DNA of 64,000 nucleotides, from IMG/VR virus record IMGVR_UViG_3300020429_000539, positions 44,263 through 108,262 of that record; one strand, given 5' to 3'. Made by a program: the position numbers and the translations under genes. The DNA comes from a virus. Lineage: Duplodnaviria > Heunggongvirae > Uroviricota > Caudoviricetes. The notes beneath the pieces were generated by a model. The model made no database searches and was not told where the DNA came from. It was given only the letters and a program-made list of their open reading frames with translations. This document shows positions 5,909-43,251 of the stretch, in pieces (within the stretch, counting starts at the first letter, position 1; every line of letters starts with the position of its first letter).

Positions 5909-6258
5909 TGGAGCGCGAGGGGATCGAACCCTCGTGTCGGTCTGGTTCAGAAGAGACATCTACGAGCGTAGCTGCTGATTTAGCTTTTCATCAATCCTGC
6001 CAGCAGCGGCATGATTTTCAGAGCATCCCATTTGATCTCGATAGTTCGTCCTAGGGAATCGAACGCGCTATCTATCCGAAGTTCATCCACTCCCCAATCA
6101 TCGGAGTCATCGGGTCGTGGGCAGGCTGATTAGGCAGCCATGCGGAGGGTGTTGCTGTTGGCAACTAATTTTCGCATACCTTTTTACGAGGCCAGAGCAT
6201 GCTTCCTCGACTCGCAGTCTTCCACCTACACCATCCGGTCGAAAACCAAATGCGCCCC
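5909..6258 (-). ncRNA. ssrA: tmRNA (tag peptide ANSNTLRMAA)
   Basis: 5' GGGGCGCATTTGGTTTTCGAC, 3' T arm GAGGGTTCGATCCCCTCGCGCTCCA, about 350 nt; tag ORF GCC AAC AGC AAC ACC CTC CGC ATG GCT GCC TAA after AATTAGTT. Confidence 0.9.
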
Positions 6259-31922: not shown

Positions 31923-31973
31923 ACCTGGTACTTCGGTATGAACTTACCCCAATCCTCTGTTTCAAAGATTAAA

Positions 31974-32063
31974 CACTCCCGGAAGGATTCGAACCCTCAA
32001 CCACGGCCTTCGATGGCCTAAACCGGATAGAAGCCGGTTGCTCTACCATTGAGCTACGGGAGC
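31974..32063 (-). tRNA. tRNA-Arg(UCU) with a long variable arm
   Basis: ACCGG-CTTCTAT-CCGGT followed by GGCC-ATCGAA-GGCC. Confidence 0.75.
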
Positions 32064-32067
32064 AAAA

Positions 32068-32422: not shown

Positions 32423-32548
32423 ACTCGCCGTCAGGATTCGAACCTGAAACTCCCCATTAGCAGTGGATAACCGTCAAACTATCGACTCCGAAGAGTAAGG
32501 CAGTGCCCAACGATGTTTTTTGGCGTTTTACCATTAAACTACAGCGAG
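32423..32548 (-). ncRNA. tRNA-shaped RNA containing a permuted Y-RNA-like module
   Basis: Acceptor CTCGCTG/CGGCGAG, D and T arms intact; insert CCTTA-CTC-TTCG-GAG-TCGATAG...GGTTATC. Confidence 0.7.
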
Positions 32549-32581
32549 AATAAATAGCTCCCATCTATTGACGAGAGCAAA

Positions 32582-32656
32582 TAGTCCCTGTCGGACTCGA
32601 ACCGACGACCTCTTGCGTGTCATGCAAGCGCTACTGGCCAACTGAGCTAAGGGACT
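32582..32656 (-). tRNA. tRNA-Val(GAC)
   Basis: CTTGC-ATGACAC-GCAAG. Confidence 0.85.
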
Positions 32657-32662
32657 GTAAAA

Positions 32663-32740
32663 CACAGGCGAAGGGACTCGAACCCCCATGTGTCCAAATT
32701 AACCTTTCTACTGGTTCGAAGCCAGAGGGTATACGCCTGC
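32663..32740 (-). tRNA. rearranged tRNA-like RNA with an Arg(UCG) anticodon arm and no normal D arm
   Basis: Acceptor GCAGGCG/CGCCTGT; CTGG-CTTCGAA-CCAG directly after TATACC; T arm GGGGG-TTCGAGT-CCCTT. Confidence 0.55.
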
Positions 32741-32746
32741 AACTAA

Positions 32747-32818
32747 ATCCCCCTCCCGGATTCGAACCGAGTTATCTGGCATACGAGGCCAGCGCATCTC
32801 CTACTATGCTTAGAGGGA
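32747..32818 (-). tRNA. tRNA-Thr(CGU)
   Basis: CTGGC-CTCGTAT-GCCAG. Confidence 0.8.
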
Positions 32819-33322
32819 ATCAACTTGAAACCACCAGAACGAATCGACTAAGTTCTGAGGTTTACCAAGCATCTCATCAACAGCCTGAACGAGGCCAGGC
32901 CACGTATCATTGTAGTCATGACCGCATATGATGCCACCCGATTTCAGCTTGGGCAGCCAAATAGAGACTTGTTCTTTCGTAGGCTCATAGTGATGGTTTG
33001 TGTCCACCATTACAAGGTCTATACTTGCATCATCAAAACTCTTGACAGCCTCAATGCCATCTTGTTCGATAATCGTAGCCGCGAAACCGCTCTGTCTAAA
33101 CCACTCGAAGAACGTGTTTCGTATCGTACGGTGCTGATGCAACCTCCAATCATCGATGCCAAAGAGCAGATTGTTGTTTTCTGCACAAACAGGTAAGATA
33201 TAGCTAAACGAACGACCTAGATATAAGCCAAACTCAACAATAACTCCATTGCGTATGTTTTGAACGAGGCCTGCATAAGCCTGTCCTTCTGCTTCTGAAA
33301 ACCATCCATAGGGTCGTTCCAT
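32810..33322 (-). CDS. class I SAM-dependent methyltransferase (Methyltransf_24-like)
   Basis: IVEFGLYLGRS, IDLVMVDTNHHY, LKSGGIICGHDY. Confidence 0.85.
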   Translation of the reverse strand: MERPYGWFSEAEGQAYAGLVQNIRNGVIVEFGLYLGRSFSYILPVCAENNNLLFGIDDWRLHQHRTIRNTFFEWFRQSGFAATIIEQDGIEAVKSFDDASIDLVMVDTNHHYEPTKEQVSIWLPKLKSGGIICGHDYNDTWPGLVQAVDEMLGKPQNLVDSFWWFQVDSL

Positions 33323-33360
33323 GTCTATGTTTTCAGAAGAAACGCAATAAAGCCTCTAAA

Positions 33361-33463
33361 TCCGGCAGCGGGAGTCGAACCCGCAACTCAGGTTGTCAAG
33401 ACCTGACAGACGGGGCACGGTGGCACATAACCGTCACGGCTTTACCTATTAAGCTACACCGGC
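33361..33463 (-). tRNA. tRNA-like RNA with a UGA (Ser) anticodon arm and an about 30-nt insert after the D arm
   Basis: TCAGGT-CTTGACA-ACCTGA; insert GACGG-TTAT...CCGTC between the D and anticodon arms. Confidence 0.55.
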
Positions 33464-34176
33464 ATGTTTGCCTGATAGCCAAGAAACTCAACCACTTCTT
33501 TATCTAGCAGAGAAGATAGTAGGTCCAGTGTCTTGCCATCGAAGCATGATAGGTATTGCTGTTGAGTGTACCATTCCGTGCCATCGAACCGCTCATTAGA
33601 TTCGATGCCATTTGTACCAACAATACCCTTGACAGTATATCGGCTATCAGCGTATTCCAAGCCAAATCGTTCTAGCTGAGAATCGTAATCCAATAACCAA
33701 TCTTCGTAGCGTATGAATACGCTATTTCTTTTTCCTCTCGCCCACTCTATCCATCCGCGATAGAGCCTATTCCATCGCAGAGCGAAGTCGATTGCGTCTT
33801 CTTCTCTGATATGTCTTACAGAGTATTTGAATGATTGAGCATAGGGCTTTTCATATAGCTTTTCTCGATAGTTGATGAAGCTGACGCAAGAAGCGAATGG
33901 ATTCTTGGCAACGAACACATATCGTATTCGGTTGCTCAAATAGGCGATGGTCATTTCAGGGGTTACGGAGTTTTCTAGTTTTTTCGCGTACCTGCGTGAC
34001 GACCAGTCTGGGTCCCAAGAACGGCTCGATGTGTCGATTTCATTCGGTATCGGGCCGTGCTTCCATCCAAACAGGTTCTTCAAACATTTGACGTTTTTGA
34101 AGCTGTTTGAGAGGATGATATCGGTGAGGTTGGTGCCTGACCTCTGTATGCCATATGTCTTGACGTAGATGGTCAT
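33454..34176 (-). CDS. sulfotransferase-like protein
   Basis: YGIQRSGTN, FVAKNPF, FIRYED. Confidence 0.7.
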   Translation of the reverse strand: MTIYVKTYGIQRSGTNLTDIILSNSFKNVKCLKNLFGWKHGPIPNEIDTSSRSWDPDWSSRRYAKKLENSVTPEMTIAYLSNRIRYVFVAKNPFASCVSFINYREKLYEKPYAQSFKYSVRHIREEDAIDFALRWNRLYRGWIEWARGKRNSVFIRYEDWLLDYDSQLERFGLEYADSRYTVKGIVGTNGIESNERFDGTEWYTQQQYLSCFDGKTLDLLSSLLDKEVVEFLGYQANMPV

Positions 34177-34192
34177 ACTCGTTTATCGGAAA

Positions 34193-34263
34193 ATCCCCCT
34201 GCCGGATTTGAACCGACACTACTTGAGTACAAAACAAGCGTGCTGCATTGACACTAAGAGGGA
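34193..34263 (-). tRNA. tRNA-Thr(UGU)
   Basis: CTTG-T-TTTGTAC-T-CAAG; T arm GTCGG-TTCAAAT-CCGGC. Confidence 0.7.
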
Positions 34264-34267
34264 GACA

Positions 34268-34572
34268 TCAGTCCAATATCTCTGATTGGTCTGGTTGGGA
34301 TGGCTGAGACTTATTCAACTGTTCGTATCTTTCTCGCTGCGCTTTTTCTTTGATAGATTGCTTGAGCGTACGAACCTCATCATCAGTCATCCATTCTTTC
34401 ATGCTTTTCATGTATGAAGACAGTTCATTAGCAGATTGTAAATTGATTAGCTTTAGCCAACCATGGTTTTCTCTGATTTCGAACAAATATTCTTGCCAAA
34501 AATCATCGTAAGCTATATTGTTTCTTACAAAAGGAACACAATCTTTTGTTCGATGGTCTGCTTCATACATCA
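34268..34572 (-). CDS. hypothetical protein
   Basis: MMYEADHRTK... (start trimmed to avoid the tRNA; 5' end approximate). Confidence 0.5.
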
Positions 34573-34587
34573 TGTACCTTTCTAGAA

Positions 34588-34660
34588 AGCCTGCGAGAGG
34601 ACTCGAACCCCCGACCGGAGCTTTACAAAAGCTCTGCTCTACCAACTGAGCTACACAGGC
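34588..34660 (-). tRNA. tRNA-Thr(UGU)
   Basis: GAGCT-TTTGTAA-AGCTC. Confidence 0.9.
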
Positions 34661-34667
34661 AAAAACA

Positions 34668-34758
34668 GAATGAGTAAGTTATGCAGATAGGCTCGTGGGA
34701 GTCGAACCCACAGCGCCGAAGCGCCTACATCAGGTAACCTAAAAGCTTCGACTCATTC
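34668..34758 (-). ncRNA. Y-RNA-like RNA with a tRNA T-arm minihelix
   Basis: Terminal stem GAATGAG/CTCATTC; GTCGAAG...GGTTAC; 3' CTTAC; internal GTGGG-TTCGACT-CCCAC. Confidence 0.7.
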
Positions 34759-34998
34759 GTTTTTCTTTTTCAGTTTATCGACCATTTCTTGAGCGGAGCC
34801 AATCAATGCGCCGATGGCGCTTAGATGTTCAGGGAAAGGATGCTGACCGTTGCTAGAGGCATGGTAATCTTGAAGCATACCTCCAAAATGCTTTTCAGCG
34901 CGGTCTATAACTCCCTGCCAGTGCTTGATTATTGCTGATTGGCTTTCGCTCATAACTGTATGTTCTTCAGGTTGCCAAGGGTAACGTGATATCCCCAC
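34753..34998 (-). CDS. hypothetical protein
   Basis: Short ORF whose stop overlaps the Y-like RNA start. Confidence 0.45.
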   Translation of the reverse strand: MGISRYPWQPEEHTVMSESQSAIIKHWQGVIDRAEKHFGGMLQDYHASSNGQHPFPEHLSAIGALIGSAQEMVDKLKKKNE

Positions 34999-35339
34999 GG
35001 TTTCTTGGGCAATCCCAGTTCTTTTCTGATTTCATCAAGGCGAGGACATTGAACGTCAATCCAAAATGACCTGCCATCTGTATCGACCTTCGGCTCGAAG
35101 GTAAACCACACGACCTCGTTGTCATACGGTTTCATCTCATCGAGTCCTACTACTCGGCTGTCCTTTTCTCCCGCGAGAAACGTGATGTGACAGCCGTTCA
35201 TTGGAAGTTGCCACGGCATTCCACGTTTGGATTGAAACCAGTTGTAGTAGGCTGCGAAGTCATCGCATACGTCAACGCCATACCAGCCAGGCTTTTGCCC
35301 TGTGCGTTTGATATCGATGTGTCCGTATGCTTGAAGCAC
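34950..35339 (-). CDS. 2H phosphoesterase family protein
   Basis: Two HxT motifs: GCHITFL and GYHVTLG. Confidence 0.75.
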   Translation of the reverse strand: MLQAYGHIDIKRTGQKPGWYGVDVCDDFAAYYNWFQSKRGMPWQLPMNGCHITFLAGEKDSRVVGLDEMKPYDNEVVWFTFEPKVDTDGRSFWIDVQCPRLDEIRKELGLPKKPWGYHVTLGNLKNIQL

Positions 35340-35374
35340 GAACCATTATAGGCTTTTGATGCTTCACTCGAAAG

Positions 35375-35450
35375 TAGTCCCGAGAGGACTTGAACCTCCA
35401 CATGACCCTGGGTGTAAACCAGGCGCTCTGGCCAATTGAGCTACGGGACC
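35375..35450 (-). tRNA. tRNA-Val(UAC)
   Basis: CCTGG-TTTACAC-CCAGG. Confidence 0.9.
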
Positions 35451-35475
35451 AAATGCGCCCGAAGGCGCTTGTGTG

Positions 35476-35817
35476 TTAGAGTTTATCTATCTGGCAGTCA
35501 GATGCAACAACATGGTTGCGAACCTGAATGTCAGATATGTCTGCGTTATCTGCGATATGAACCTTCGAGAAGCAGCAGCATTCTCCGTAAGGGTCATATG
35601 GGTCTACTGCGCCGCAACAGTATGGGTCATACGGATCGTATGGATCATACGGATCTCCGTCGTGACATGCGCAGCCGTTTGTATGGTTTTCTACGACGAA
35701 ACAAAGGCCGTAGACGTTGCAGAGCTTGTTGTATTGCACGAGGAATGCTTCGATTTGCTGTGGTGTTGCCATAAGATGTTTTCTCCTGTAAAAGCGAATC
35801 AGATGGTTGCTGTTCAC
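35476..35817 (-). CDS. Cys-rich small protein with DPY tandem repeats
   Basis: CHDG(DPY)4CCGAV(DPY)2GECCCF. Confidence 0.5.
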   Translation of the reverse strand: MNSNHLIRFYRRKHLMATPQQIEAFLVQYNKLCNVYGLCFVVENHTNGCACHDGDPYDPYDPYDPYCCGAVDPYDPYGECCCFSKVHIADNADISDIQVRNHVVASDCQIDKL

Positions 35818-35862
35818 TTATGAGGAAACGTCGAGGCAAACCTTTGTTGCGTCTCAAATAAA

Positions 35863-35947
35863 TTGGGCCGACAGGACTCGAACCTGCATAGGACTTTTCG
35901 TCCCCCGATTATCAGTCGGGTGCTTAACCAATTCAGCGCACGACCCA
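35863..35947 (-). tRNA. tRNA-Ile(GAU) with a long variable arm
   Basis: CCCGA-CTGATAA-TCGGG followed by GGAC-GAAAA-GTCC. Confidence 0.8.
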
Positions 35948-35955
35948 AACTAAAG

Positions 35956-36027
35956 TCCACCTAGCAGGACTTGAACCTGCGACACATCGGTTATCAGCCG
36001 ATTGCTCTGCCACTGAGCTATAGGTGG
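35956..36027 (-). tRNA. tRNA-Ile(GAU)
   Basis: ATCGG-CTGATAA-CCGAT. Confidence 0.9.
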
Positions 36028-36031
36028 GAAA

Positions 36032-36104
36032 CTCCCCGAGCAGGGCTCGAACCTGCGACACGGTGGTTAACAGCCACCCGCTCTACCAACTGAGCTATCG
36101 GGGA
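36032..36104 (-). tRNA. tRNA-Asn(GUU)
   Basis: GGTGG-CTGTTAA-CCACC. Confidence 0.9.
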
Positions 36105-36107
36105 AAC

Positions 36108-36228
36108 AGAACAGATAAGGGGTTAGCATTGGCGTTTTTACCCCCAGCATTTCTTGCTTCACAGACAAGCGCTTTGGGCATTTTGAATAAGGATCAAAGT
36201 GATAACCAAAAACTATTCGACCTGTTCT
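36108..36228 (-). ncRNA. Y-RNA-like RNA (linear type)
   Basis: Stem AGAACAGG/TCTGTTCT; GTCGAATAG...GGTTATC; 3' CCCTTA. Confidence 0.7.
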
Positions 36229-36232
36229 AAAA

Positions 36233-36315
36233 AGACTGGTGTGGGATTCGAACCCACGTAGGGGACATGCCCCGCAGGTTAACAGCCTGCCGCTTAACCG
36301 CTCAGCCAACCAGTC
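36233..36315 (-). tRNA. tRNA-Asn(GUU) with a long variable arm
   Basis: GCAGG-CTGTTAA-CCTGC followed by GGGG-CATGT-CCCC. Confidence 0.8.
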
Positions 36316-36319
36316 AAAC

Positions 36320-36434
36320 TTGCAAGTAAGGGAGTGGTAACGGAAATGCCCCCAAAGGGCGCTTCCCCATGAGTTGTGAAAGCGGGGAAGATAAGAGTCG
36401 AACTTACAGATAACCGTCGCCTATCGACTTGCAA
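36320..36434 (-). ncRNA. YrlA-like Y RNA (Ro stem, T arm, loop-closed acceptor-like stem, D-like arm)
   Basis: TTGCAAG/CTTGCAA stem; GTCGATAG...GGTTATC; GTAAG-TTCGACT-CTTAT; CTTCCCC/GGGGAAG closed by a loop; CCCTTAC. Confidence 0.75.
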
Positions 36435-36549
36435 ATATCTTATTTGCCTAGGGAAAACACCTGATTGTTATACAGTAATGGATATTCCTAAAGGCTCTGA
36501 AGCCTAGCAATCTCAACTAGAAACACGAGATTGTTTTGAAAGGGAATCA

Positions 36550-37467
36550 ATGACACGAAACTGTATGACTTTCAACTGTAGACCAGGCTTCAGCCATTGG
36601 GACCAAAATCTAGGACTAAACCGAAGATGGGCCTCAGATGACGAGGATTTGTTTCCATGGCTTGAGGACAACTTAGATGCCGCGTTTGACGCGGGTATCA
36701 GAGAGTTCAAGTTCCAACTACCAACAGGTAAATACCGTTGGGAAGTCGAGCAGCCCTTCGTGATGGCCTCTCGTTTTCCTGTAGGAAGACTCAAGAACTT
36801 GGAGGCCCTCTTTGGTAAGTATCGTTCTCAAGACGCTGATGTCACCTTTACAGTCCGTTCTGGCTTTTGGTTCTCTCACTACGATGATACAACAGGAGAT
36901 GTTATCTCGAACAGAGGCAGCAAGGCTTACTGGCCTATCAACGCACAGTCCGAAACAGATGAAGACTTTGACCGTGCTATGGATTACTTGGCCGGTCTCG
37001 TCGAAGGGCTGAATCCAACCTTTGACGCCATTGATTTTGACGCTTTGTGCTGGCTTGGCTGGGAGAAGACTTCCGTTGTTCTTGAAGCTCTCAACGAACG
37101 ACTAAACTTCCGTTACATAGGCGGAGAGTTGCCTGGTCCTTACGCTTTTAAGAATGGCTCCAACGAAGAGTGGTTTGATGTTGTTGAGAACTTTATGCCA
37201 GAGAAAACTCGCTGGTCTATAAAGGGCATTCATAGGCTCAATAACCGAATGCACCGCAATCCTCGTGTCTGGGTCTTTGACAATGAAAAGACAGATGAGA
37301 TTGTGAGGGCTGGTGTCAATATCGACTATTGGTCAGGTAGCTACCAAGATAGCATCGGAGACAAGCTTGTTGACAAATCAAGTCGCATCATCAATGCTAA
37401 GGCTGTTCGCATTAGTTCCGCGAGGGTAAGCGGTTCTATAAGGAACGTTGCTCGTAAGCGATTGTAA
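36550..37467 (+). CDS. hypothetical protein, paralogous to 8398-9582, on the opposite strand within the tRNA array
   Basis: 305 aa; GIREFKFQLPTGK, AIDFDA, YIGGELP motifs. Confidence 0.6.
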   Translation: MTRNCMTFNCRPGFSHWDQNLGLNRRWASDDEDLFPWLEDNLDAAFDAGIREFKFQLPTGKYRWEVEQPFVMASRFPVGRLKNLEALFGKYRSQDADVTFTVRSGFWFSHYDDTTGDVISNRGSKAYWPINAQSETDEDFDRAMDYLAGLVEGLNPTFDAIDFDALCWLGWEKTSVVLEALNERLNFRYIGGELPGPYAFKNGSNEEWFDVVENFMPEKTRWSIKGIHRLNNRMHRNPRVWVFDNEKTDEIVRAGVNIDYWSGSYQDSIGDKLVDKSSRIINAKAVRISSARVSGSIRNVARKRL

Positions 37468-37468
37468 A

Positions 37469-37540
37469 TACCCCGAGAGGGATTCGAACCCCCGACAAAG
37501 TGGTTAAGAGCCACCTGCTCTGCCGCTGAGCTACCGAGGT
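37469..37540 (-). tRNA. tRNA-Lys(CUU)
   Basis: GTGG-CTCTTAA-CCAC. Confidence 0.9.
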
Positions 37541-37544
37541 AAAA

Positions 37545-37620
37545 GTGGGTTGCCAGAGATTCGAACTCTGAAGACTCCTGGGTAAGAACCAGGTGCTTTA
37601 CCTAATAAGCTTGCAACCCA
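37545..37620 (-). tRNA. tRNA-Lys(CUU)
   Basis: CCTGG-TTCTTAC-CCAGG. Confidence 0.85.
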
Positions 37621-37625
37621 TGAAA

Positions 37626-37699
37626 CGAGGATGAAGGGATTCGAACCCTCAGTCGCCAGATCGACAATCTGGTGCATTAACCGATTATGCTACATCCCC
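37626..37699 (-). tRNA. tRNA-Asp(GUC)
   Basis: CCAGA-TTGTCGA-TCTGG. Confidence 0.9.
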
Positions 37700-37710
37700 A
37701 AAGATGAAAG

Positions 37711-37794
37711 TGGGCCAGACAGGATTTGAACCTGCGCATGTCGCCGGGTTTCAACCGACCGCTCTACCATTGCTTGCGCTTGAGCTACTGACCC
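37711..37794 (-). tRNA. tRNA-Phe(GAA) with an enlarged D loop
   Basis: D loop AAGCGCAAGCAATGGTA (contains a GC-GCAA-GC mini-hairpin); anticodon loop TTGAAAC. Confidence 0.7.
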
Positions 37795-37890
37795 TTTTCT
37801 GGTGGGTTGCAACCCACCAGAGCCCACTTGTCTGCGTTATTTATACTCGTCAAGTGGTCCCACGAGTACGGCCAACCGGCAGCCGTTAAG

Positions 37891-37973
37891 GGTGATCGAC
37901 GGGATTCGAACCCGCATTGTCGTTGCCGACCCTGGACCACAACCAGGTGCATTACCAATCTGCCACGACCACC
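37891..37973 (-). tRNA. tRNA-His(GUG) with a long variable arm
   Basis: Encoded G-1 and C73; CCTGG-TTGTGGT-CCAGG followed by GTCG-GCAA-CGAC. Confidence 0.8.
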
Positions 37974-37979
37974 ATCTAA

Positions 37980-38139
37980 AGACAGGTATCCGCAACTTGA
38001 AGGACCAGAGGAACGGTCGTTTACTCGACGCCTCCGCTCTTGGCTACCCTTCGGGCAAGGGTTCCCGTTTACGCTCACGAGTTCGCTAACGGTTCACCTA
38101 TTGCTTTTGTATAGCGCTGAGCCTCCTGCGCTACTGTCT
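37980..38139 (-). ncRNA. candidate long-hairpin RNA (6S-like?)
   Basis: Nested complementary segments AGACAG/CTGTCT, GGAGG/CCTTC, GAAC/GTTC, CGTT/AACG, ACTCG/CGAGT around an A-rich bubble; fills the gap between two tRNAs. Confidence 0.35.
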
Positions 38140-38144
38140 GAAAG

Positions 38145-38216
38145 GGTGACTGACGGGATTTGAACCCGCATAAGACTGCTTCACAAGCAGTTGCATTACC
38201 AATCTGCCACAGCCAC
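38145..38216 (-). tRNA. tRNA-His(GUG)
   Basis: ACTGC-TTGTGAA-GCAGT; C73. Confidence 0.85.
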
Positions 38217-38218
38217 AA

Positions 38219-38292
38219 TGCCGATAGCAGGACTTGAACCTGCGCTGACGGAGCTTATGAGACTCCCGCTCTACCAACTGAGCTATACCGGC
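38219..38292 (-). tRNA. tRNA(CAU), Met or Ile2
   Basis: GGAG-T-CTCATAA-G-CTCC. Confidence 0.85.
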
Positions 38293-38296
38293 TACT

Positions 38297-38450
38297 GTTA
38301 GAACTTCCCGTAAGCGGGATCCTGTTTTATCCCATCATTTCTCTAGCGGCCCTTACCCGACCATCATTGCGTCACACCCGCGCTCCGGTCTGTTTAGGTT
38401 GCTACCTCTGCGGTCCAAACGGCTGTTTAGGCCTCCCCCATTCGCGAAGT
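38297..38450 (-). pseudogene. 3' part of a split RNase P RNA
   Basis: GAGAAATGATGGG...ACAGGATCCCGCTTAC-GGGAAGTTCTAAC; supplies the P2, P4 and P1 strands complementary to 39936-40011. Confidence 0.75.
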
Positions 38451-38454
38451 GCAG

Positions 38455-38769
38455 CTATACAAGCTGCGAAACGAGATTTCTCGCCAAATCTATGTCATCC
38501 GCATTCAGCATGCGATTGTTTGGCTCGGAAATGAGTAGAACCTTTTCTACTTCCCAGCAGTTATATGCATCCCAATCCCAACCATCATGAGATATTGAAG
38601 AAACGCCTTCATAAGGAGTTGCATTGCCGATGATGAGCATTTTTGGTATAGCAGAACCATCATTCTTGAGGTATATTATCATACCGGGCTGTAGCCCATG
38701 CAGTCGGATAAAATCCCCAAGCATAACTTTTGTCTTCGACAGGTCATGTATGATTTGAGTTTCCATCAT
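38455..38769 (-). CDS. hypothetical protein inside the RNase P insertion
   Basis: 104 aa with a TGAAAGG SD-like sequence upstream. Confidence 0.55.
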   Translation of the reverse strand: MMETQIIHDLSKTKVMLGDFIRLHGLQPGMIIYLKNDGSAIPKMLIIGNATPYEGVSSISHDGWDWDAYNCWEVEKVLLISEPNNRMLNADDIDLARNLVSQLV

Positions 38770-38782
38770 TGCCTTTCATTTA

Positions 38783-39044
38783 TTGGAAAAGAAATAAGCT
38801 CATAGCCAGGGTTCTGTTTCAACCTCTTCATTTATCTCATTCCGAAGAATGGCAAGCGTTTATAGCCTGCTGCCCGCTACCCGCCGGATCGTGCTGCTCA
38901 CCCACTACGGCCTATATGCGGTTAGTCCCTCGGTAGTCCAAACGGCTTATTCAGCCTCCTACCTTGTTAGCAGTGGACCCCTGAACTTCCTCACCAACAT
39001 GGTTTTCCCTTGCGGCGCGAAGAGTCGGCCCATTCCTTTTCCAA
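38783..39044 (-). ncRNA. rnpB: compact RNase P RNA (intact inner copy)
   Basis: 17-bp P1 (TTGGAAAAGGAATGGGC/GCTTATTTCTTTTCCAA); P2 CTCTTC/GAAGAG; P4 GAGGAAGTTCAGGG/ACAGAACCCTGGCTA; AGATAAATGA joining motif. Confidence 0.8.
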
Positions 39045-39889
39045 TTCCTTTGATAACACCTATTAGAACAGAAATAACGACTATTGGTTTCGGTGTCGTA
39101 TTCTACTCCGCATTCTTTACACTTGCGGCCTTTGTAACTCTGCTTAACGATTGAATCCCATTTGTAAGCGAAACAAGACAGAGGACAAGGGCCTATGAAT
39201 TCAAAGAACTCGAAAACACTTCGATTCGGAATCAATATCCTGTTTCTTTGGGCTACGGAAGACTCTACTCCTACTCCTTCGAGTTTGCCCGTCAAGATAT
39301 GCAAGCTTTCACTGTTAAAACTATCTGTGCAAAGCCAAATGCCTCGTTCATTATCAAGACTCCCATCTCCGAGAAACCAATGCAAGGCAGTTAAGGGCTT
39401 CATTGACAAATCTTGAGGCACTTGTTTGCCTTCAGTTGTATACCAGACATTGTGAAGCAATGTCATCGTGGGGCTGTTTCTGGTCCGAAGATAGAATGCT
39501 TTTTTGCAATGAACTTTTCGACCTAGTATTGATGACTCATGAGCTTTCCGACTAGATTTGCGAAGAGGGAAGGACAATGAGTCTGATAGGAAATCACTAT
39601 ACTCCTCATGGATTGAGGCGTGTATTAGTTGGTAGTTCTTTGCCCGGCTTGATTTACTAATACATCCGTCAGATAGTAAAAGACCATTCAGTATTTCTTG
39701 GTCTTCTTGATTCAGTTCGAAGGTATTTTCGGCTTGTATCTTAGCAAACCTGCAATCTTTGCTGCAAAACTTTGTAGCCTTGTCTTTGCGGGCAAGGAAA
39801 GATGTTGAGCAAGATTCACAAGACCTTTCAATAAACTGATGATTACCGTCAGTCCAATGACCAAACTCTGTTTTTCGTAGTTTCCCCAT
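38951..39889 (-). CDS. LAGLIDADG homing endonuclease with zinc-finger termini
   Basis: ILNGLLLSDGCI and ALHWFLGDGSL motifs; CxxC...FCS fingers at both ends; own TATAAT about 25 nt upstream. Confidence 0.85.
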   Translation of the reverse strand: MGKLRKTEFGHWTDGNHQFIERSCESCSTSFLARKDKATKFCSKDCRFAKIQAENTFELNQEDQEILNGLLLSDGCISKSSRAKNYQLIHASIHEEYSDFLSDSLSFPLRKSSRKAHESSILGRKVHCKKAFYLRTRNSPTMTLLHNVWYTTEGKQVPQDLSMKPLTALHWFLGDGSLDNERGIWLCTDSFNSESLHILTGKLEGVGVESSVAQRNRILIPNRSVFEFFEFIGPCPLSCFAYKWDSIVKQSYKGRKCKECGVEYDTETNSRYFCSNRCYQRNWKRNGPTLRAARENHVGEEVQGSTANKVGG

Positions 39890-39935
39890 TGTATTATCCT
39901 TTCTATCAGATATTATACATACAAAGGGGAGAACT

Positions 39936-40011
39936 CCTTCTTGCAGTCCCGACTTTCCTCTCGTCCGTATGGAATCAGTGACGGATAGAGCGATGGGTCG
40001 GAAGTTCTAAC
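39936..40011 (-). pseudogene. 5' part of the split RNase P RNA
   Basis: GTTAGAACTTCC (P1), CCCATC (P2), a P3 hairpin and GAGGAAAGTCGGGAC (P4). Confidence 0.75.
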
Positions 40012-40027
40012 CAGTTTATCTCGAAAA

Positions 40028-40151
40028 AGCCTGCGTCAGGATTCGAACCTGAACAACCTCTGTTGCAAAGAGATAACCTTCTATCCATCGACTCCAAGGA
40101 GTAAGGGGCGGCAGAAGACCGTTTAGCATGCTACCATTACATCACACAGGC
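40028..40151 (-). ncRNA. tRNA-shaped RNA containing a permuted Y-RNA-like module
   Basis: Acceptor GCCTGTG/CGCAGGC; insert CCTTA-CTC-CTTG-GAG-TCGATGG...GGTTATC, then CTCT-TTGCAAC-AGAG; T arm TCAGG-TTCGAAT-CCTGA. Confidence 0.7.
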
Positions 40152-40153
40152 AT

Positions 40154-40378
40154 TCAATCAGTTTTTGCTTTATGACCGCAGTTGCGGCAGCAAATCGTTT
40201 TGTTTGTATGCCCCACGTTGCAGTCGGGACAGTAAATGAAACCGTATTTTTCACGAAGCTTCATAGCTCTTTCGTGACTTGCTCGCAGTCTTTCTTTCCA
40301 TGCGGGCGAATCCCAATCTTCTTCGTAAGGCCAATCTGCTGGTCGTTTCCAGCCAGGATTTCTGAGTCTGTCATTCAT
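40154..40378 (-). CDS. small zinc-finger protein
   Basis: MNDRL...YCPDC...CCRNCG; start trimmed to avoid the RNA gene. Confidence 0.5.
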   Translation of the reverse strand: MNDRLRNPGWKRPADWPYEEDWDSPAWKERLRASHERAMKLREKYGFIYCPDCNVGHTNKTICCRNCGHKAKTD

Positions 40379-40391
40379 GACAATCTCCAAA

Positions 40392-40511
40392 AGCGCCGAG
40401 CAGGACTCGAACCTGCAACCCACAATGGATGTTAACCGTTGCTCTTCGGCTTCGAAAAGCAAGTTGACGAGGACGGTGGAAATTGTTGCTCTACCATTGA
40501 GCTACCGGCGC
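40392..40511 (-). ncRNA. tRNA-shaped RNA whose anticodon loop is replaced by a permuted Y-RNA-like module
   Basis: Acceptor GCGCCGG/CTCGGCGC; anticodon stem ACAAT/ATTGT encloses CTTG-CTT-TTCG-AAG-CCGAAG...GGTTAAC. Confidence 0.7.
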
Positions 40512-40516
40512 TAAAC

Positions 40517-40945
40517 TTACCAACTGACCGTAAAGGCGAGTTTGCCTTTGTGAGACTCAAGGAAGTCGATGACTTCTTGTTGGCTGGTGACGCTGTAGGC
40601 AGTCTTGTTCTCGTGTCCGAGAGCTTCTTTGACCTTGGCAATCAACTCGTCATCAATCTTAACGAACTCTTCTCCTTCGTTGATGATCTCAGAGATGGCT
40701 CCAACAGGATCAGGAATGAAGGTTTTGTTGTCTTCGAACAGAGCCGCTTTTAGCCAGGAAACTTCGCCAACCCAGACGTTCGGAAGAGAAGAGATAATGG
40801 AGTAACTATCCATTTCTTCGTCTCTATTCCTGTTGCGGTCTAGGTTGAAGTACTTGGAGCCGAGGGTTCCGCTGAAGAAGTCTTCAAAGACAGCTTCTTC
40901 AACTTCTCCTTCAGCGAAGACATGGATATGCAAATCTGCTGCCAT
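40517..40945 (-). CDS. hypothetical protein
   Basis: 142 aa; AAGGAG SD. Confidence 0.65.
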   Translation of the reverse strand: MAADLHIHVFAEGEVEEAVFEDFFSGTLGSKYFNLDRNRNRDEEMDSYSIISSLPNVWVGEVSWLKAALFEDNKTFIPDPVGAISEIINEGEEFVKIDDELIAKVKEALGHENKTAYSVTSQQEVIDFLESHKGKLAFTVSW

Positions 40946-40964
40946 TGTTGTTTCTCCTTGTAAG

Positions 40965-41052
40965 TGGGAGAGACAGGAATCGAACCTGCAAAGACTTACT
41001 TTGATGCGGGACGTTTACAGCGTCCTGGGCTCACCACCTGCCCAACTCTCCC
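40965..41052 (-). tRNA. tRNA-Tyr(GUA)
   Basis: GGACG-CTGTAAA-CGTCC; long variable arm. Confidence 0.85.
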
Positions 41053-41057
41053 AAAAG

Positions 41058-41140
41058 TCCACCGGGAGGGACTCGAACCCCCAAACCCGAAAGGGAACAG
41101 ATTTACAGTCTGTCTGCGTTACCAATTTGCATACCGATGG
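41058..41140 (-). tRNA. tRNA-Tyr(GUA)
   Basis: ACAGA-CTGTAAA-TCTGT; long variable arm. Confidence 0.9.
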
Positions 41141-41143
41141 AAA

Positions 41144-41216
41144 AGCCATCACAGAAGGAATCGAACCCTCGCCTCTTCCCTATCGTGGAAGTGTGCCCAT
41201 TTACACCATAGATAAC
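41144..41216 (-). pseudogene. degenerate tRNA
   Basis: CTTCC-ACGATAG-GGAAG arm with a non-canonical loop; T arm present; acceptor disrupted. Confidence 0.4.
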
Positions 41217-41372
41217 TACCGTCTTTTCCGGTTGTCACAGGTCTTTCCCTTGTCTCTTGCTTACTGCATATGAACTGATCAGGTTCAGGGAAGCAATCGG
41301 CCTAAGTTTACCGACCCTCTTTCTATCTCGGGGTGTTGCCCAAGATAAAGGCGTGTGGGTTATACCTTGAAG

Positions 41373-41446
41373 TGGAAGCGACGAGATTCGAACTCGCAAT
41401 ACTCTTGGTTGCAAACCAAGCGCTTTACCTGATAAGCTTCGCCCCC
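41373..41446 (-). tRNA. tRNA-Ala(UGC)
   Basis: CTTGG-TTTGCAA-CCAAG; G3:U70. Confidence 0.9.
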
Positions 41447-41450
41447 ATAA

Positions 41451-42251
41451 TCAGTGCGGATTGACCCAGTGTTGCAATCCGTCTTCTGTCATTCTTTCTC
41501 CGTATTCGGTTTGAATCCATTGACGGAAAGGAAGATTGGCTATACAAGTCCAACCCCAATCTCGAAAAAGGTTTTCTATGCTCGTATGAATCGATTCGCT
41601 GTGCGTTCCGATGAGAACTCTGCGAACTCGCTTCATGCTCTGTTTATGTTGTTCAAAGAGGCCTTTTTCGCCGCTTTGGATGTCGCAATCAAGGAGGTCT
41701 ACAGTTCCGTGCCTCTCAATGATTTCTGTCAGGTCTATTCTTGGATAAGCAAGCCCTTTCATATAGCAATTGTTGATATATCCAACCAAGACTTCATGGT
41801 TTAGTTGTTGATAGTCGTCGAGTTTGTTTTCAACAAACGTTCTTATGAGAGCCTTGAGCGAGTCGGGATGACTTTCAATACTCGTAATTCTCATGGGCAA
41901 GTTTTTATGTTGCTTGTTTGCTTCACAAGCAAATGCTTCCCACCGACCTTGATAGGCCCCTAGCTTTATCAGAGAGTAGTTCTTTTCTGCGCTGAGGATG
42001 GACTGTAGTAGCGCGACATATTCGTAGTAATCGTCGCAGTTGGCATACCGAGGGCTCTTGCTAACCTGTCTTATAGCTTTAGTAACGTATTTGTAGTGGA
42101 TCTCTTTTTCTATCAATGGGAAAGACGATTGAAGAAACTTAGAACCAAGAAAGTTTGTGATCCATGTCTCATCTTCTTTGTATCCGTCTTGACGGAAGCT
42201 AGCAAAGCAAGGATCGATATTGTCGTAGGGTATGTTGTTGAAAAACTTCAT
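41451..42251 (-). CDS. FkbM-like methyltransferase
   Basis: LIKLGAYQGRW, ITSIE, VDLLDCDIQSGE, VLIGTHS. Confidence 0.65.
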   Translation of the reverse strand: MKFFNNIPYDNIDPCFASFRQDGYKEDETWITNFLGSKFLQSSFPLIEKEIHYKYVTKAIRQVSKSPRYANCDDYYEYVALLQSILSAEKNYSLIKLGAYQGRWEAFACEANKQHKNLPMRITSIESHPDSLKALIRTFVENKLDDYQQLNHEVLVGYINNCYMKGLAYPRIDLTEIIERHGTVDLLDCDIQSGEKGLFEQHKQSMKRVRRVLIGTHSESIHTSIENLFRDWGWTCIANLPFRQWIQTEYGERMTEDGLQHWVNPH

Positions 42252-42504: not shown

Positions 42505-42634
42505 AAAATCCTGAAACAAAGCGTTCAACAAGACTGTCATGCAAGACCCGCCAAGGCGCAAGCATCGTCCTTTGTATCTAGTGCCTGTTTCAGCCTTGCT
42601 CTCTTGAGTATTGGCGTACTCTCAACAAGGGAAA

Positions 42635-42708: not shown

Positions 42709-42711
42709 AAT

Positions 42712-42800
42712 AAACAGGTAAGGGGTGAGTATCGGATATGCCTTTCGGCAGGTTTGATTACAATTCAAAGTTGATAACCGATGGTCTCTTCGACCTGTTT
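42712..42800 (-). ncRNA. Y-RNA-like RNA (linear type)
   Basis: Stem AAACAGG/CCTGTTT; GTCGAAG...ATCGG-TTATC; CCGAT...CCCTTAC. Confidence 0.7.
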
Positions 42801-42803
42801 GAA

Positions 42804-42968: not shown

Positions 42969-43090
42969 GTAAGCCGTGGCGCTTTCGCGCACACGGCGAT
43001 GAGACTTACTGATTACTCGCTATTCACTTGTCAAAGATGCTGGAACTTTCGACCCATCCGAGCCTAGGTTCCTATGAATTTGCATTCAAA

Positions 43091-43161: not shown

Positions 43162-43165
43162 AAAG

Positions 43166-43251
43166 TGGGCCGCACAGGATTCGAACCTGCAATGGAGCTT
43201 TCGCTCGCCGGATTAAAAGTCCGATGCCTTCAACCGTTCGGCCAACGACCC
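43166..43251 (-). tRNA. tRNA-Lys(UUU) with a long variable arm
   Basis: TCGGA-CTTTTAA-TCCGG followed by GAGC-GAAA-GCTC. Confidence 0.8.

What the first reader, a model, noticed from the sequence alone, without database searches (positions are those of the whole stretch)
32423..40511. tRNA/Y-RNA chimeras: a circularly permuted Ro60-binding-like module inserted into tRNA bodies
Seen in three genes (32423-32548, 40028-40151, 40392-40511). Each has normal acceptor, D and T arms, but the anticodon region holds a 55-65-nt insert with the order C(C)TT(A/G)-3-bp stem-tetraloop-G(T/C)CGA...GGTTA(T/A)C. The same motifs occur in the opposite order in four free-standing RNAs in this window, so these are true circular permutations. 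Established (from recall): Y RNAs carry GGUCCGA...GUUAU on the 5' strand and CUUGAC on the 3' strand of the Ro-binding stem, and bacterial YrlA mimics tRNA but has its ends at the Ro stem. Here the ends are at a real acceptor stem, so RNase P and CCA processing and even aminoacylation are possible. Two also keep 7-nt anticodon-like loops (GCU, GCA). Inference: Ro60/Rsr tethers or decoys fused to chargeable tRNA scaffolds.
Basis: partly seen in the sequence, partly recalled or inferred. Interest (0 to 1): 0.9.

Follow-up and report, generated by a model that had tools for sequence, protein, structure and literature searches.

The report
tRNA-shaped Ro60-binding RNAs in phage
A 488-kb marine phage that encodes its own Ro60 (Rsr) protein carries small RNA genes built like real tRNAs but with a Ro60-docking (Y RNA) hairpin spliced into the anticodon region; this is the reverse wiring of the known bacterial tRNA-like Y RNA and is not described in the papers I could search.

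Summary
Three genes in the window (32423-32548, 40028-40151, 40392-40511, all minus strand), and a fourth elsewhere in the genome, have covarying acceptor, D and T arms. Each carries a 53-56-nt insert with a CUUR-stem-tetraloop-stem-YCGA hairpin (bulged C), a second helix and GGUUAWC. Four free-standing RNAs in the window, and three more near the phage's rsr gene, carry the same motifs in the opposite order.

The phage encodes a full Ro60/Rsr (TROVE + vWA). The same module lies directly upstream of rsr in other phages, both free and embedded in tRNA bodies, and each phage's variant of the helix is shared by its two forms. The motifs match two published YrlA signatures (GNCGAAN0-1G and YUAY). 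Rfam's YrlA and Y RNA models do not detect the window's copies.

Nothing points to splicing: there is no endonuclease gene or intron fold, and one metatranscriptome contig retains the insert.

Best reading: these are Y RNAs with true tRNA topology, matured by tRNA-processing enzymes and bound by phage Rsr. Binding, CCA addition and charging are untested.

This scan has already reported the same class on other DNA (cyanobacteria, myxobacteria, other phages, archaeal and giant viruses). I found no paper describing it. It is a new variant of a known kind.

The parts
32423..32548 (-). Chimera 1 (126 nt): tRNA-shaped Y RNA. Acceptor CUCGCUG/CGGCGAG, D arm, T arm, discriminator U followed by UU.
   Evidence: Sequence. 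Model R1 scores 126 bits. Covariation. Its 3' part alone scores 28 bits against Rfam tRNA. ARAGORN calls it only in intron mode.
32468..32523 (-). 56-nt Y module of chimera 1, inserted between position 26 and the anticodon-like hairpin. It comprises a linker, helices H3 and H2, CUUA-CUC-UUCG-GAG-U-[C]-GA (at 32482-32499), and GACGG-UUA.
32453..32467 (-). Anticodon-like hairpin of chimera 1: 4-bp stem and 7-nt loop CUGCUAA (U33, GCU, A37).
   Evidence: Its position relative to the T arm (5-nt variable loop) matches an anticodon arm. It could instead correspond to YrlA's V stem-loop.
40028..40151 (-). Chimera 2 (124 nt): tRNA-shaped Y RNA. Acceptor GCCUGUG/CGCAGGC, discriminator U followed by UU.
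   Evidence: Sequence. R1 scores 112 bits. Covariation.
40074..40126 (-). 53-nt Y module of chimera 2. The Rsr-type hairpin CUUA-CUC-CUUG-GAG-U-[C]-GA lies at 40088-40105, followed by AGAAGG-UUA.
40057..40073 (-). Anticodon-like hairpin of chimera 2: 5-bp stem and loop UUGCAAC (U33, GCA, A37). With U73 it looks tRNA-Cys-like.
40392..40511 (-). Chimera 3 (120 nt): tRNA body with an intact 5-bp anticodon stem (ACAAU/AUUGU) whose loop is replaced by the Y module.
   Evidence: Rfam tRNA 53.3 bits, full length. R1 scores 112 bits. An RNA-library contig covers 40393-40607 with no gap.
40427..40481 (-). 55-nt Y module of chimera 3. In order: UUCCA, CCGU, CUC, GUCAA, then CUUG-CUU-UUCG-AAG-C-[C]-GA (at 40446-40463), A, GAG, CA, ACGG, UUAAC, AUCC.
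42712..42800 (-). Free-standing Y RNA in canonical order (5' GGUCGA-A-...-GGUUAUC ... CUUACC 3'). It fills the gap between tRNA-Asp and tRNA-Arg, leaving 2-nt spacers.
   Evidence: R2, trained on other phages only, aligns it full length at 17.2 bits, E 0.057.
36320..36434 (-). Free-standing YrlA-like RNA: Rsr stem, GGUUAUC, T-arm-like hairpin (UUCGACU loop), closed 8-bp hairpin, a further hairpin, then the 3' strand CUUACUUG.
   Evidence: R2 aligns it full length at 16.9 bits, E 0.068.
36108..36228 (-). Free-standing Y-like RNA between two tRNA-Asn genes: terminal stem AGAACAGGU/AUCUGUUCU, GUCGAAUAG and GGUUAUC.
   Evidence: R2 does not report it, so it rests on motif and end-pairing only.
34668..34758 (-). 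Free-standing Y-like RNA with GAGUCGAAG, GGUUACC, a UUCG-capped hairpin, a T arm (GUGGG-UUCGACU-CCCAC) and the 3' strand CUUACUCA.
   Evidence: R2 aligns it full length at 15.8 bits, E 0.13. Rfam YrlA gives only 20 bits.

Best explanation
The three genes are Y RNAs, the non-coding partners of the phage's own Ro60/Rsr protein, built with the native topology of a tRNA.

- Transcription and processing: they are transcribed within the phage's long minus-strand tRNA array. I infer that the enzymes that mature the neighbouring tRNAs excise them: RNase P at the 5' end, cleavage after the discriminator at the 3' end, then CCA addition by the phage or host enzyme.
- Fold: acceptor, D and T arms give an L-shaped tRNA body.
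- Two architectures: in chimera 3 the module extends a 5-bp anticodon stem and replaces the loop. In chimeras 1 and 2 it sits between position 26 and a retained anticodon-like hairpin.
- The module: a long hairpin whose distal helix, capped by a tetraloop, has a bulged C next to G.U and A-U pairs (5' N-Y-[C]-G-A / 3' N-R-U-U). This is the signature of the Ro60-binding helix of Y RNAs. GGUUAWC corresponds to the YUAY element of YrlA.
- Function (inferred): Rsr docks on this helix, so the RNA couples the Rsr ring to whatever recognises a tRNA shape, as proposed for YrlA. Such a partner might be a processing or repair enzyme, a synthetase or a nuclease. The likely purpose is surveillance or repair of the tRNA pool during infection.

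Shown here: gene structure, covariation, motif identity with free Y RNAs, the link to rsr across phages, and no sign of splicing. Inferred: Rsr binding, end processing and the biological role.
For: 1. The phage encodes a full-length Ro60/Rsr: TROVE plus vWA_Ro60, 567 aa, E 1e-109 to 1e-114 against 1YVP, 2NVO and 9NEN.

2. The fourth chimera and three free Y RNAs lie about 3 kb from rsr across the junction of the 123-bp end repeat.

3. Chimeric and free forms share the same 5'-strand block, (A/G)G(U/C)CGA(A/U)-N-GG-UUAWC, and the same 3'-strand block, CUU(A/G)C, at fixed spacing. There are 9 genomic matches against 0.46 expected.

4. The blocks fit the published Rsr-associated motif GNCGAAN0-1G and the YUAY element of YrlA (PMC4201824). 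On a canonical YrlA of a related phage (L012), Rfam YrlA aligns GAGCCGAAGC and GGUUAU to those model positions (36.5 bits, E 1.4e-6).

5. Structure covaries: 18 of 27 pairs have compensatory changes and 98.5% of cells are paired.

6. Model R1 finds full-length chimeras (119-147 nt) directly upstream of rsr in other phages, which supplied no training sequence except L005. Hits: L015 at 79 and 67 bits, L017 at 71 and 62, L011 at 54 and 52. It also finds them in tRNA arrays far from rsr in a 360-kb relative (G005, 66, 57 and 46 bits) and in G007.

7. Model R2, trained only on rsr-adjacent free Y RNAs of five other phages, ranks this genome's free copies as its top five hits, with exact boundaries.

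8. Each phage's variant of the helix is shared by its free and embedded copies: GGUACGG/AUUACC in L015, GGACCC/UUUUGUCC in L011, AACCG/UUUGUU in G005. This is expected if both bind that phage's Rsr.

9. Chimeras 1-3 have the same 3' flank as the phage's real tRNAs: no encoded CCA, and UU directly after the discriminator, as in 53 of 63 tRNAs. The phage encodes a CCA-adding-type nucleotidyltransferase and RtcB.

10. A metatranscriptome contig identical to the phage spans chimera 3 with the insert in place.
Against: - No binding, processing or charging data exist for these RNAs.
- Rfam's YrlA (RF02553), Y_RNA and sbRNA models give no hit on the window's copies, even at E up to 10 with lax filters.
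- The window's three chimeras are 79-87 kb from rsr, so synteny supports them only indirectly.
- Only one of the three matches GNCGAAN0-1G exactly. The other two read GUCGAU.
- Three of the window's free copies reach only borderline E-values with R2 (0.06-0.13), and one is not found at all.
- Minimum-free-energy folds do not recover the comparative structure of the insert.
- The RNA evidence comes from assembled contigs. These cannot show ends, strand or rare spliced forms.
Confidence: 0.78

Rival explanations
1. The inserts are introns. They are removed to give ordinary tRNAs, for example Cys(GCA) and Ser(GCU) from chimeras 1 and 2, and the similarity to Y RNAs is incidental.
For: ARAGORN in intron mode calls all three as intron-containing tRNAs. 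Deleting the 53-56-nt insert from chimeras 1, 2 and 4 leaves 70-72-nt class-I-like bodies with 7-nt anticodon loops. The phage encodes the ligase RtcB.
Against: - No group I or II intron or other ribozyme model hits the inserts.
- The phage has no tRNA-splicing endonuclease, and bacterial hosts have none.
- Insert positions differ: 26/27 in some, inside the anticodon loop in others.
- Any excision from chimera 3 leaves an abnormal loop. ARAGORN's version gives UUCAUCC with C37.
- The insert is the most conserved part across phages, and it equals the free Y RNAs next to rsr.
- An RNA-library contig retains it and no skipping joint was seen.
Confidence: 0.05
2. Chimeras 1 and 2, and the fourth, are still working tRNAs. 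They are charged and perhaps decode, and they carry the Rsr handle as an extra arm. The tRNA function would then be primary and the Y module an accessory for protection, tagging or quality control of that tRNA.
For: - The anticodon-like hairpins have U33 and a purine at position 37, and sit 4-5 nt before the T stem, as in real tRNAs.
- The fourth chimera has G-1, C73 and GUG, the tRNA-His identity set, plus the same C73-C-UU flank as the phage's tRNA-His genes. It is most similar, weakly, to a phage tRNA-His.
- Chimera 2 combines GCA with U73.
- A HisRS-family match exists in the genome.
Against: - A 53-56-nt arm at the 26/27 hinge is unknown in any decoding tRNA and would disturb D-stem/anticodon-stem stacking.
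- The anticodon stems of chimeras 1 and 4 have only 4 bp.
- Chimera 3 and most relatives in other phages have no anticodon loop at all.
- Chimera 1 pairs GCU with U73 and no long variable arm, which is not a tRNA-Ser identity.
- A similar 7-nt-loop hairpin follows GGUUAUC in a canonical YrlA of another phage (L012), so it may be YrlA's V stem-loop.
- The phage already has ordinary tRNA-Cys and tRNA-His genes.
Confidence: 0.1
3. The module binds some other factor and not Rsr, for example a phage tRNA-modifying enzyme or a host nuclease. Its co-occurrence with rsr would be coincidental or indirect.
For: No binding data exist. Rfam's Y-RNA models do not hit the window's copies. The window's copies are far from rsr.
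Against: - The module sits directly upstream of rsr in at least six independent phage contigs: L005, L008, L011, L012, L015, L017.
- It carries the bulged-C helix and the CGA(A) motif tied experimentally to Ro60/Rsr binding in other systems (PMC4201824; PMC12135203).
- The helix variant changes from phage to phage in step across free and embedded copies.
Confidence: 0.05
4. The chimeras are decaying tRNA pseudogenes into which a mobile or recombining Y-RNA cassette happened to insert, and they have no function.
For: The array shows much rearrangement: homing endonuclease genes, duplicated tRNAs and odd tRNA-like remnants.
Against: - All stems are intact and compensatory changes maintain them.
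- Tertiary-interaction nucleotides are kept.
- The same architectures recur in phages whose Rsr is only 40-47% identical.
- The region is represented in metatranscriptome contigs.
Confidence: 0.02

Closest known systems
YrlA (Y RNA-like A; Rfam RF02553; S. Typhimurium, M. smegmatis, mycobacteriophages; Chen et al. 2014, PMC4201824; structure in Wang et al. 2018, PDB 6CU1)
   Same: A Y RNA that partners Rsr and combines an Rsr-binding stem (GNCGAAN0-1G), a YUAY element and a tRNA-like domain with T arm, acceptor-like stem and D arm. It is encoded near rsr and occurs in phages.
   Different: YrlA has its 5' and 3' ends at the Rsr-binding stem and its acceptor-like stem is closed by a loop (order T, acceptor, D). 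That makes it a circular permutation of tRNA (PMC11472068). Here the ends are at an open 7-bp acceptor stem with a discriminator, and the Rsr stem is the part closed by a tetraloop. RF02553 does not detect these genes. Three of the four also carry an anticodon-like hairpin.
[quoted passage not shown] 2014)
   Same: [quoted passage not shown]
   Different: There the open acceptor end is made after transcription by cutting a closed stem-loop, which gives a two-piece RNA. Here the open acceptor end is encoded by the gene and the RNA stays a single chain.
Free phage Y RNAs: Thermus phage phiLo Yrl1 and Yrl2 with phage Ro60 (PMC12135203)
   Same: A phage-encoded Ro60 with several small RNAs upstream of it carrying the CGAA motif in a stem-bulge-stem. 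Binding and a complex with host PNPase were shown experimentally.
   Different: Those RNAs are simple stem-loop Y RNAs with no tRNA body. They correspond to the free-standing RNAs in this window, not to the chimeras.
Metazoan Y RNAs and nematode sbRNAs (Rfam RF00019, RF01656)
   Same: They share the bulged-C Ro-binding helix (GGUCCGA / CUUGAC) and a UUAUC element. The RF01656 consensus printed reads GGUCCGG...GGGUUAUC...CAACUUGACC, and the model scores free Y RNAs of a related phage above its own threshold.
   Different: They have no tRNA-like domain. Those models give no hit on this window's copies.
tmRNA and viral tRNA-like structures
   Same: They are non-tRNA RNAs with a tRNA-like acceptor/T domain that is processed and charged.
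   Different: tmRNA lacks a D arm and carries an mRNA module. It does not bind Ro60. The resemblance is only by analogy.

Membership tests
YrlA (RF02553) | Scores at or above the family's covariance-model threshold (69 bits) | tested here: not met
   No YrlA hit on any chimera. Best hits in the region are 20-28 bits on tRNA pairs. A canonical-order relative in phage L012 reaches 36.5 bits, E 1.4e-6, still below the threshold.
YrlA (RF02553) | GNCGAAN0-1G motif on the 5' strand of the Rsr-binding stem | tested here: met
   Chimera 3 reads GCCGAAG, an exact match. Chimeras 1 and 2 read GUCGAUAG and GUCGAUGG, with U in place of the second A. The free copies read GUCGAAG, GUCGAAU or GUCGAUA. Motif definition from PMC4201824.
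YrlA (RF02553) | Conserved YUAY about 16 nt downstream, at the start of the V region | tested here: met
   Reads GG-UUAU-C or GG-UUAA-C, 11-13 nt after CGA, in all copies. Rfam aligns the GGUUAU of L012 to the model's CUAc.
YrlA (RF02553) | Order T arm, closed acceptor-like stem-loop, D arm, with the RNA ends at the Rsr stem | tested here: not met
   The chimeras have the order acceptor-5', D, module, T, acceptor-3', with open ends at the acceptor stem and a tetraloop closing the Rsr stem.
YrlA (RF02553) | Encoded next to rsr | tested here: inconclusive
   The window's copies are 79-87 kb from rsr. The fourth chimera is about 3 kb from it. Relatives in L005, L011, L015 and L017 lie directly upstream of rsr.
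Y RNA (functional class: Ro60/Rsr-bound RNA) | Physically bound by Ro60/Rsr | not testable with these tools
   Needs immunoprecipitation or a gel shift. Only the presence of the protein gene and motif and synteny evidence are available.
Y RNA (functional class) | Helix with a bulged C flanked by conserved pairs (metazoan U-A, C-G, [C], G.U, A-U) | tested here: met
   The pairs R-Y, then [C], then G.U and A-U are present in all five aligned chimeras. Columns 53-58 with 66-72 are 100% paired, and 3 of those 6 pairs show compensatory changes.
tRNA (RF00005) | Cloverleaf reaching the family threshold (29 bits) | tested here: inconclusive
   Chimera 3 scores 53.3 bits full length with the insert treated as an insertion. 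Chimeras 1 and 2 reach only 28 and 19 bits, on their 3' parts. ARAGORN calls none of them without intron mode.
tRNA (decoding function) | 7-nt anticodon loop on a 5-bp stem continuous with position 26 | tested here: not met
   In chimera 3 the loop is replaced by 55 nt. In chimeras 1 and 2 a hairpin with a 7-nt loop exists, but 56 and 53 nt separate it from position 26.
Intron-containing tRNA | A recognisable splicing mechanism: group I/II fold, or a bulge-helix-bulge motif plus an endonuclease | tested here: not met
   No intron model hits the inserts. PF01974 is absent from the phage. An RNA-library contig keeps the insert.

The most novel reading that the evidence does not exclude
The chimeras that keep an anticodon arm (GCU and GCA in the window; GUG with G-1:C73 elsewhere in the genome) are CCA-tailed and aminoacylated. 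That would make them charged tRNAs physically carrying a Ro60 ring. Rsr surveillance would then be coupled directly to synthetases, EF-Tu or the ribosome. Alternatively they could act as bait for host anticodon nucleases. Either way, this gene family would be a living intermediate showing how Y RNAs arose from tRNAs.
Probability: 0.12. Interest if true: 0.9.

Novelty: new variant of a known kind. Interest (0 to 1): 0.66.

Why it matters
Bacterial Y RNAs of the YrlA type are known to mimic tRNA, but always as a circular permutation with a closed acceptor stem. What their tRNA-like domain binds is still unknown.

Genes with the unpermuted layout put a Ro60-docking helix on a molecule that RNase P, 3'-processing enzymes, the CCA-adding enzyme and perhaps synthetases should accept as a tRNA. 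That has three consequences:

- It makes the proposed tRNA origin of Y RNAs concrete.
- It offers a natural single-chain substrate for finding the partner of the tRNA-like domain.
- It suggests that large phages use Ro60 to manage their own large tRNA pools (63 tRNAs here) during infection.

There is also a practical point. tRNA finders miss these genes or call them intron-containing tRNAs, and the Rfam YrlA model misses them, so they are currently unannotated or misannotated.

Tried and rejected
- Exact-pattern scan of IMG/VR for the chimera 1/2 hairpin (CCTTACTC-N4-GAGTCGAT): three matches, all in coding-like DNA with no GGTTA or tRNA context, so chance.
- Megablast of 38000-42000 against GenBank phages: only a 78-nt tRNA-His match, so no close cultured relative.
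- Rfam at the gathering threshold and at E up to 10 on the window, on the genome start and on 176 nt holding two free Y RNAs: no Y_RNA, YrlA or sbRNA hit on this genome's copies.
- A first, looser motif pattern gave 6 matches against 3.3 expected and was uninformative. The tightened pattern gave 9 against 0.46.
- Unconstrained and cloverleaf-constrained minimum-free-energy folds did not reproduce the comparative module structure. I rely on covariation instead.
- The lead that a phage CysRS might match the Cys-like chimera failed. The PF01406 hit is a MetRS (tRNA-synt_1g, 286 bits).
- tblastn of two neighbouring ORFs (142 aa and 266 aa) against the other phage loci found nothing. The small Zn-ribbon ORF was submitted in the wrong frame, so it was not tested.
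- Metatranscriptome contigs cannot show RNA ends, strand, CCA tails or abundance. No joint skipping an insert was listed, but contigs drop rare forms. Uncovered bins are not evidence.
- Three giant-virus-like records (L018, L020, L023) were not held, so their whole contigs could not be searched.

Full report
**Setting.** The window is bases 44263-108262 of a 488,051-bp virus record whose ends share a 123-bp repeat. The record holds 63 tRNA genes and a tmRNA. Most of the tRNAs lie in a minus-strand array at window 31.4-43.6 kb. The same DNA is found at full identity in marine metagenomes from several studies, so it is not an assembly oddity.

**The observation.** The three genes are at the stated coordinates on the minus strand.
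- Each has a 7-bp acceptor stem, U8, a 4-bp D stem with loop AAUGGUA, a 5-bp T stem with loop UUCGA(A/G)U, a possible A15:U48 pair and a single discriminator base.
- The inserts are 56, 53 and 55 nt.
- Each insert contains, in order: one strand of a 4-6-bp helix (H3), a short helix (H2), a 3-5-nt bulge, CUU(A/G), a 3-bp stem, a tetraloop, the return strand, (U/C), an unpaired C, GA, one nucleotide, the H2 and H3 return strands ending in GG, and UUA(U/A)C.
- A fourth gene of the same build lies at genome 622-748 (Rfam tRNA 46 bits).
- Four RNAs in the window (42712-42800, 36320-36434, 36108-36228, 34668-34758) and three near the genome start (752-827, 833-911, 1107-1299) carry the same blocks in the other order. 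Their 5' and 3' ends form the bulged-C helix, and GGUUAWC follows the 5' strand.
- When the chimeric inserts are cut at the tetraloop and laid beside the free RNAs, both strands align column for column.

**Is it more than chance?**
- The combined 5'-strand pattern occurs 9 times in the genome, all on the minus strand and all in the two tRNA-rich regions. A first-order Markov simulation gives 0.46.
- In an alignment of the four chimeras plus one from another phage, the proposed pairs (acceptor, D, H3, capped bulged helix, T) are 98.5% paired. Eighteen of 27 pairs show compensatory changes, and no shuffle or slid register comes close.

**Link to Ro60.**
- The phage encodes a 567-aa protein with TROVE and Ro60-type vWA domains. 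It matches X. laevis and human Ro60 and D. radiodurans Rsr at E 1e-109 to 1e-114.
- The gene lies about 3 kb, across the end repeat, from the cluster with the fourth chimera and three free Y-like RNAs.
- I fetched 20 viral contigs that encode a relative of this protein at 37-47% identity. Several carry the same module directly upstream of rsr.
- One example is L005. Behind a single promoter-like site it has free RNA, free RNA, tRNA-shaped chimera, free RNA, and then rsr.

**Models in both directions.**
- Model R1 was built from the chimeras. In this genome it scores the four chimeras at 112-126 bits, and the next best hit, an ordinary tRNA, at 47 bits.
- In other phages R1 finds full-length 119-147-nt chimeras just upstream of rsr: L015 (79 and 67 bits), L017 (71, 62, 42) and L011 (54, 52, 36).
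- R1 also finds chimeras inside tRNA arrays far from rsr in a complete 360-kb relative (G005: 66, 57 and 46 bits) and in G007 (59 bits).
- Six of the seven rsr-encoding phage records that I could search whole contain at least one chimera-length hit. The seventh (L012) has a canonical-order YrlA instead.
- Model R2 was trained only on rsr-adjacent free RNAs of five other phages. With filters off, its top five hits in this genome's sequence are the free RNAs I had delimited by eye: 34.7, 21.1, 17.2, 16.9 and 15.8 bits, with noise starting at 11 bits.
- Each phage has its own spelling of the bulged helix, shared by its free and tRNA-embedded copies: GGUACGG/AUUACC in L015, GGACCC/UUUUGUCC in L011, AACCG/UUUGUU in G005, GYCGA/CUUR here. 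That is what co-evolution with one protein partner predicts.

**Comparison with what is known.**
- Chen et al. 2014 (PMC4201824) defined YrlA by four features: a GNCGAAN0-1G motif thought to contact Rsr, a YUAY element at the start of the V region, a tRNA-like domain in the order T arm, closed acceptor-like stem-loop, D arm, and a position near rsr, including in phages.
- The blocks found here fit the first two features.
- On the canonical-order relative in L012, Rfam's YrlA model aligns GAGCCGAAGC and GGUUAU to exactly those model positions (36.5 bits, E 1.4e-6, below the 69-bit threshold).
- The nematode sbRNA model (RF01656, a Y RNA homologue) scores two small RNAs of L012 near or above its own threshold. 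Its printed consensus carries GGUCCGG...GGGUUAUC...CAACUUGACC. GGUUAUC is therefore an old Y-RNA element and not a local quirk.
- None of the Rfam Y-RNA families hits this window's copies, and the domain order of the chimeras is the reverse of YrlA's. They work like YrlA but are not members of the family as it is defined.
- YrlA's tRNA-like domain is already known to be a circular permutation of tRNA (PMC11472068). M. smegmatis YrlA is cut by RNase P and CCA-tailed in vivo.
- The new element is a gene that encodes the unpermuted, single-chain form. In four full-text searches I found no paper describing it. The papers read include the 2025 phage Ro60 study and the jumbo-phage survey.
- This scan's own notes record the same class on other DNA: cyanobacteria, myxobacteria, a cyanophage, a crAss-like phage, archaeal viruses and a giant virus.

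**Two architectures.**
- In chimera 3, as in L005, L015b, L017a, L017b and L011c, a normal 5-bp anticodon stem encloses the module. The RNA is then a tRNA whose anticodon arm is extended by about 20 bp and ends in the Rsr-type helix.
- In chimeras 1, 2 and the fourth, the module sits between position 26 and a hairpin with a 4-5-bp stem and a 7-nt loop. The loops are CUGCUAA, UUGCAAC and AUGUGGA, each with U33 and a purine at 37, and each hairpin lies 4-5 nt before the T stem.
- The fourth chimera also has G-1, C73 and the C-UU flank of the phage's tRNA-His genes. Chimera 2 pairs GCA with U73.
- These hairpins may be inherited anticodon arms, or the equivalent of YrlA's V stem-loop. A similar hairpin follows GGUUAUC in L012's canonical YrlA. 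I cannot decide between the two.

**Processing and splicing.**
- No tRNA gene of this phage encodes CCA, and 53 of 63 are followed directly by UU. Chimeras 1-3 share that flank.
- The free Y RNAs fill the gaps between tRNAs with 2-4-nt spacers, so tRNA end-processing would release them as well.
- The phage encodes a CCA-adding-type nucleotidyltransferase and RtcB, but no tRNA-splicing endonuclease.
- No intron or ribozyme model matches the inserts.
- In marine metatranscriptome assemblies, a 219-nt contig identical to the phage covers 40393-40607, which is chimera 3 with its insert. Another contig runs from the upstream ORF into the gene. No insert-skipping joint was listed.
- Coverage in the RNA libraries is patchy where the DNA run is flat: zero at 33784-34611 against 13.4 in DNA. 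This argues against plain DNA carry-over. It remains weak evidence, because contigs hide ends and rare forms.

**Mechanism.**
- Most likely (about 0.78): the chimeras are Y RNAs matured like tRNAs and bound by phage Rsr through the capped bulged helix. The tRNA body serves both as a processing and stability scaffold and as the effector-recruiting domain, as proposed for YrlA.
- A role in surveillance or repair of the phage's tRNA pool, together with RtcB, the CCA enzyme and host PNPase, is plausible by analogy with PMC12135203 and PMC7824862. It is not shown.
- Rivals, with my odds: spliced introns 0.05; still-functional charged tRNAs carrying an Rsr handle 0.10; another binding partner 0.05; pseudogenes 0.02.

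**Verdict.** This is a new variant of a known kind (Y RNA with a tRNA-like domain). It recurs in phages and, according to this scan's earlier notes, well beyond them.

Noticed in passing
window 38787-39036 (-): A short RNase P class A-like RNA: 53 bits against a threshold of 100, E 3e-14, spanning model positions 1-367 in 250 nt. Metatranscriptome contigs of high depth (94.5 in X13) cover exactly 38839-39045. It overlaps the 3' end of a LAGLIDADG endonuclease ORF (38951-39889).
   Followed up: partly
window 31973-32064, 35862-35948, 36233-36315, 37890-37972, 43165-43251 (-): tRNA-Arg(UCU), Ile(GAU), Asn, His and Lys(UUU) genes of 83-92 nt carry an extra hairpin in the variable region, several capped by GNRA-type loops. 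These isoacceptors are normally class I tRNAs without long variable arms.
   Followed up: no
window 33360-33463 (-) and 37711-37794 (-): Two further aberrant tRNA-like genes that ARAGORN misses. One is 104 nt (Rfam tRNA 31 bits) with ACGGUUAU in the anticodon region and a long extra arm with loop CUUGACA. The other is 84 nt (46 bits) with an insertion in the D loop.
   Followed up: no
window 42710-42802 and 36106-36232: The free Y RNAs fill tRNA-to-tRNA gaps almost exactly, with 2-4-nt spacers, so tRNA end-processing alone would define their ends (tRNA-punctuated maturation).
   Followed up: partly
window 2280-2356 (-); genome 40480-40552 and 176826-176896: Suppressor-type tRNAs with anticodons CUA (two copies) and UCA. 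These hint at stop-codon readthrough or recoding in this phage.
   Followed up: no
window 5906-6258 (-): A phage-encoded tmRNA (101 bits) with tag peptide ANSNTLRMAA.
   Followed up: no
window 44081-45637 (-); window 26295-26885 (-): A MetRS (tRNA-synt_1g, 286 bits) lies directly beside the tRNA array. A HisRS-family match covers only model positions 18-143 in a roughly 200-aa frame. Another note of this scan proposes a frameshift there.
   Followed up: partly
window 40160-40378 (-): A 73-aa ORF with a CPDC...CRNC zinc-ribbon motif sits between chimeras 3 and 2. Its homologues were not tested, because the tblastn query was in the wrong frame.
   Followed up: no
window 42505-42633, 37973-38143, 41141-41371, 42969-43089 (-): Other tRNA-gap segments of 120-230 nt have no ORF and show obvious hairpins. 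The last contains GGGUCGAAAG and CUUUGAC. None is explained.
   Followed up: no
L012 9652-9720 and 9885-9958; L012 9742-9870: The Rfam nematode sbRNA family RF01656 scores two phage Y RNAs at 40.4 and 36.0 bits (threshold 38), a cross-kingdom hit of a eukaryotic Y-RNA-homologue model. Between them lies a canonical-order YrlA that RF02553 scores at only 36.5 bits.
   Followed up: partly
window 32810-33322, 33454-34176, 34950-35339 (-): Methyltransferase, sulfotransferase-like and 2H-phosphoesterase-like ORFs are interspersed in the tRNA array. The last is a family linked to RNA end healing.
   Followed up: no
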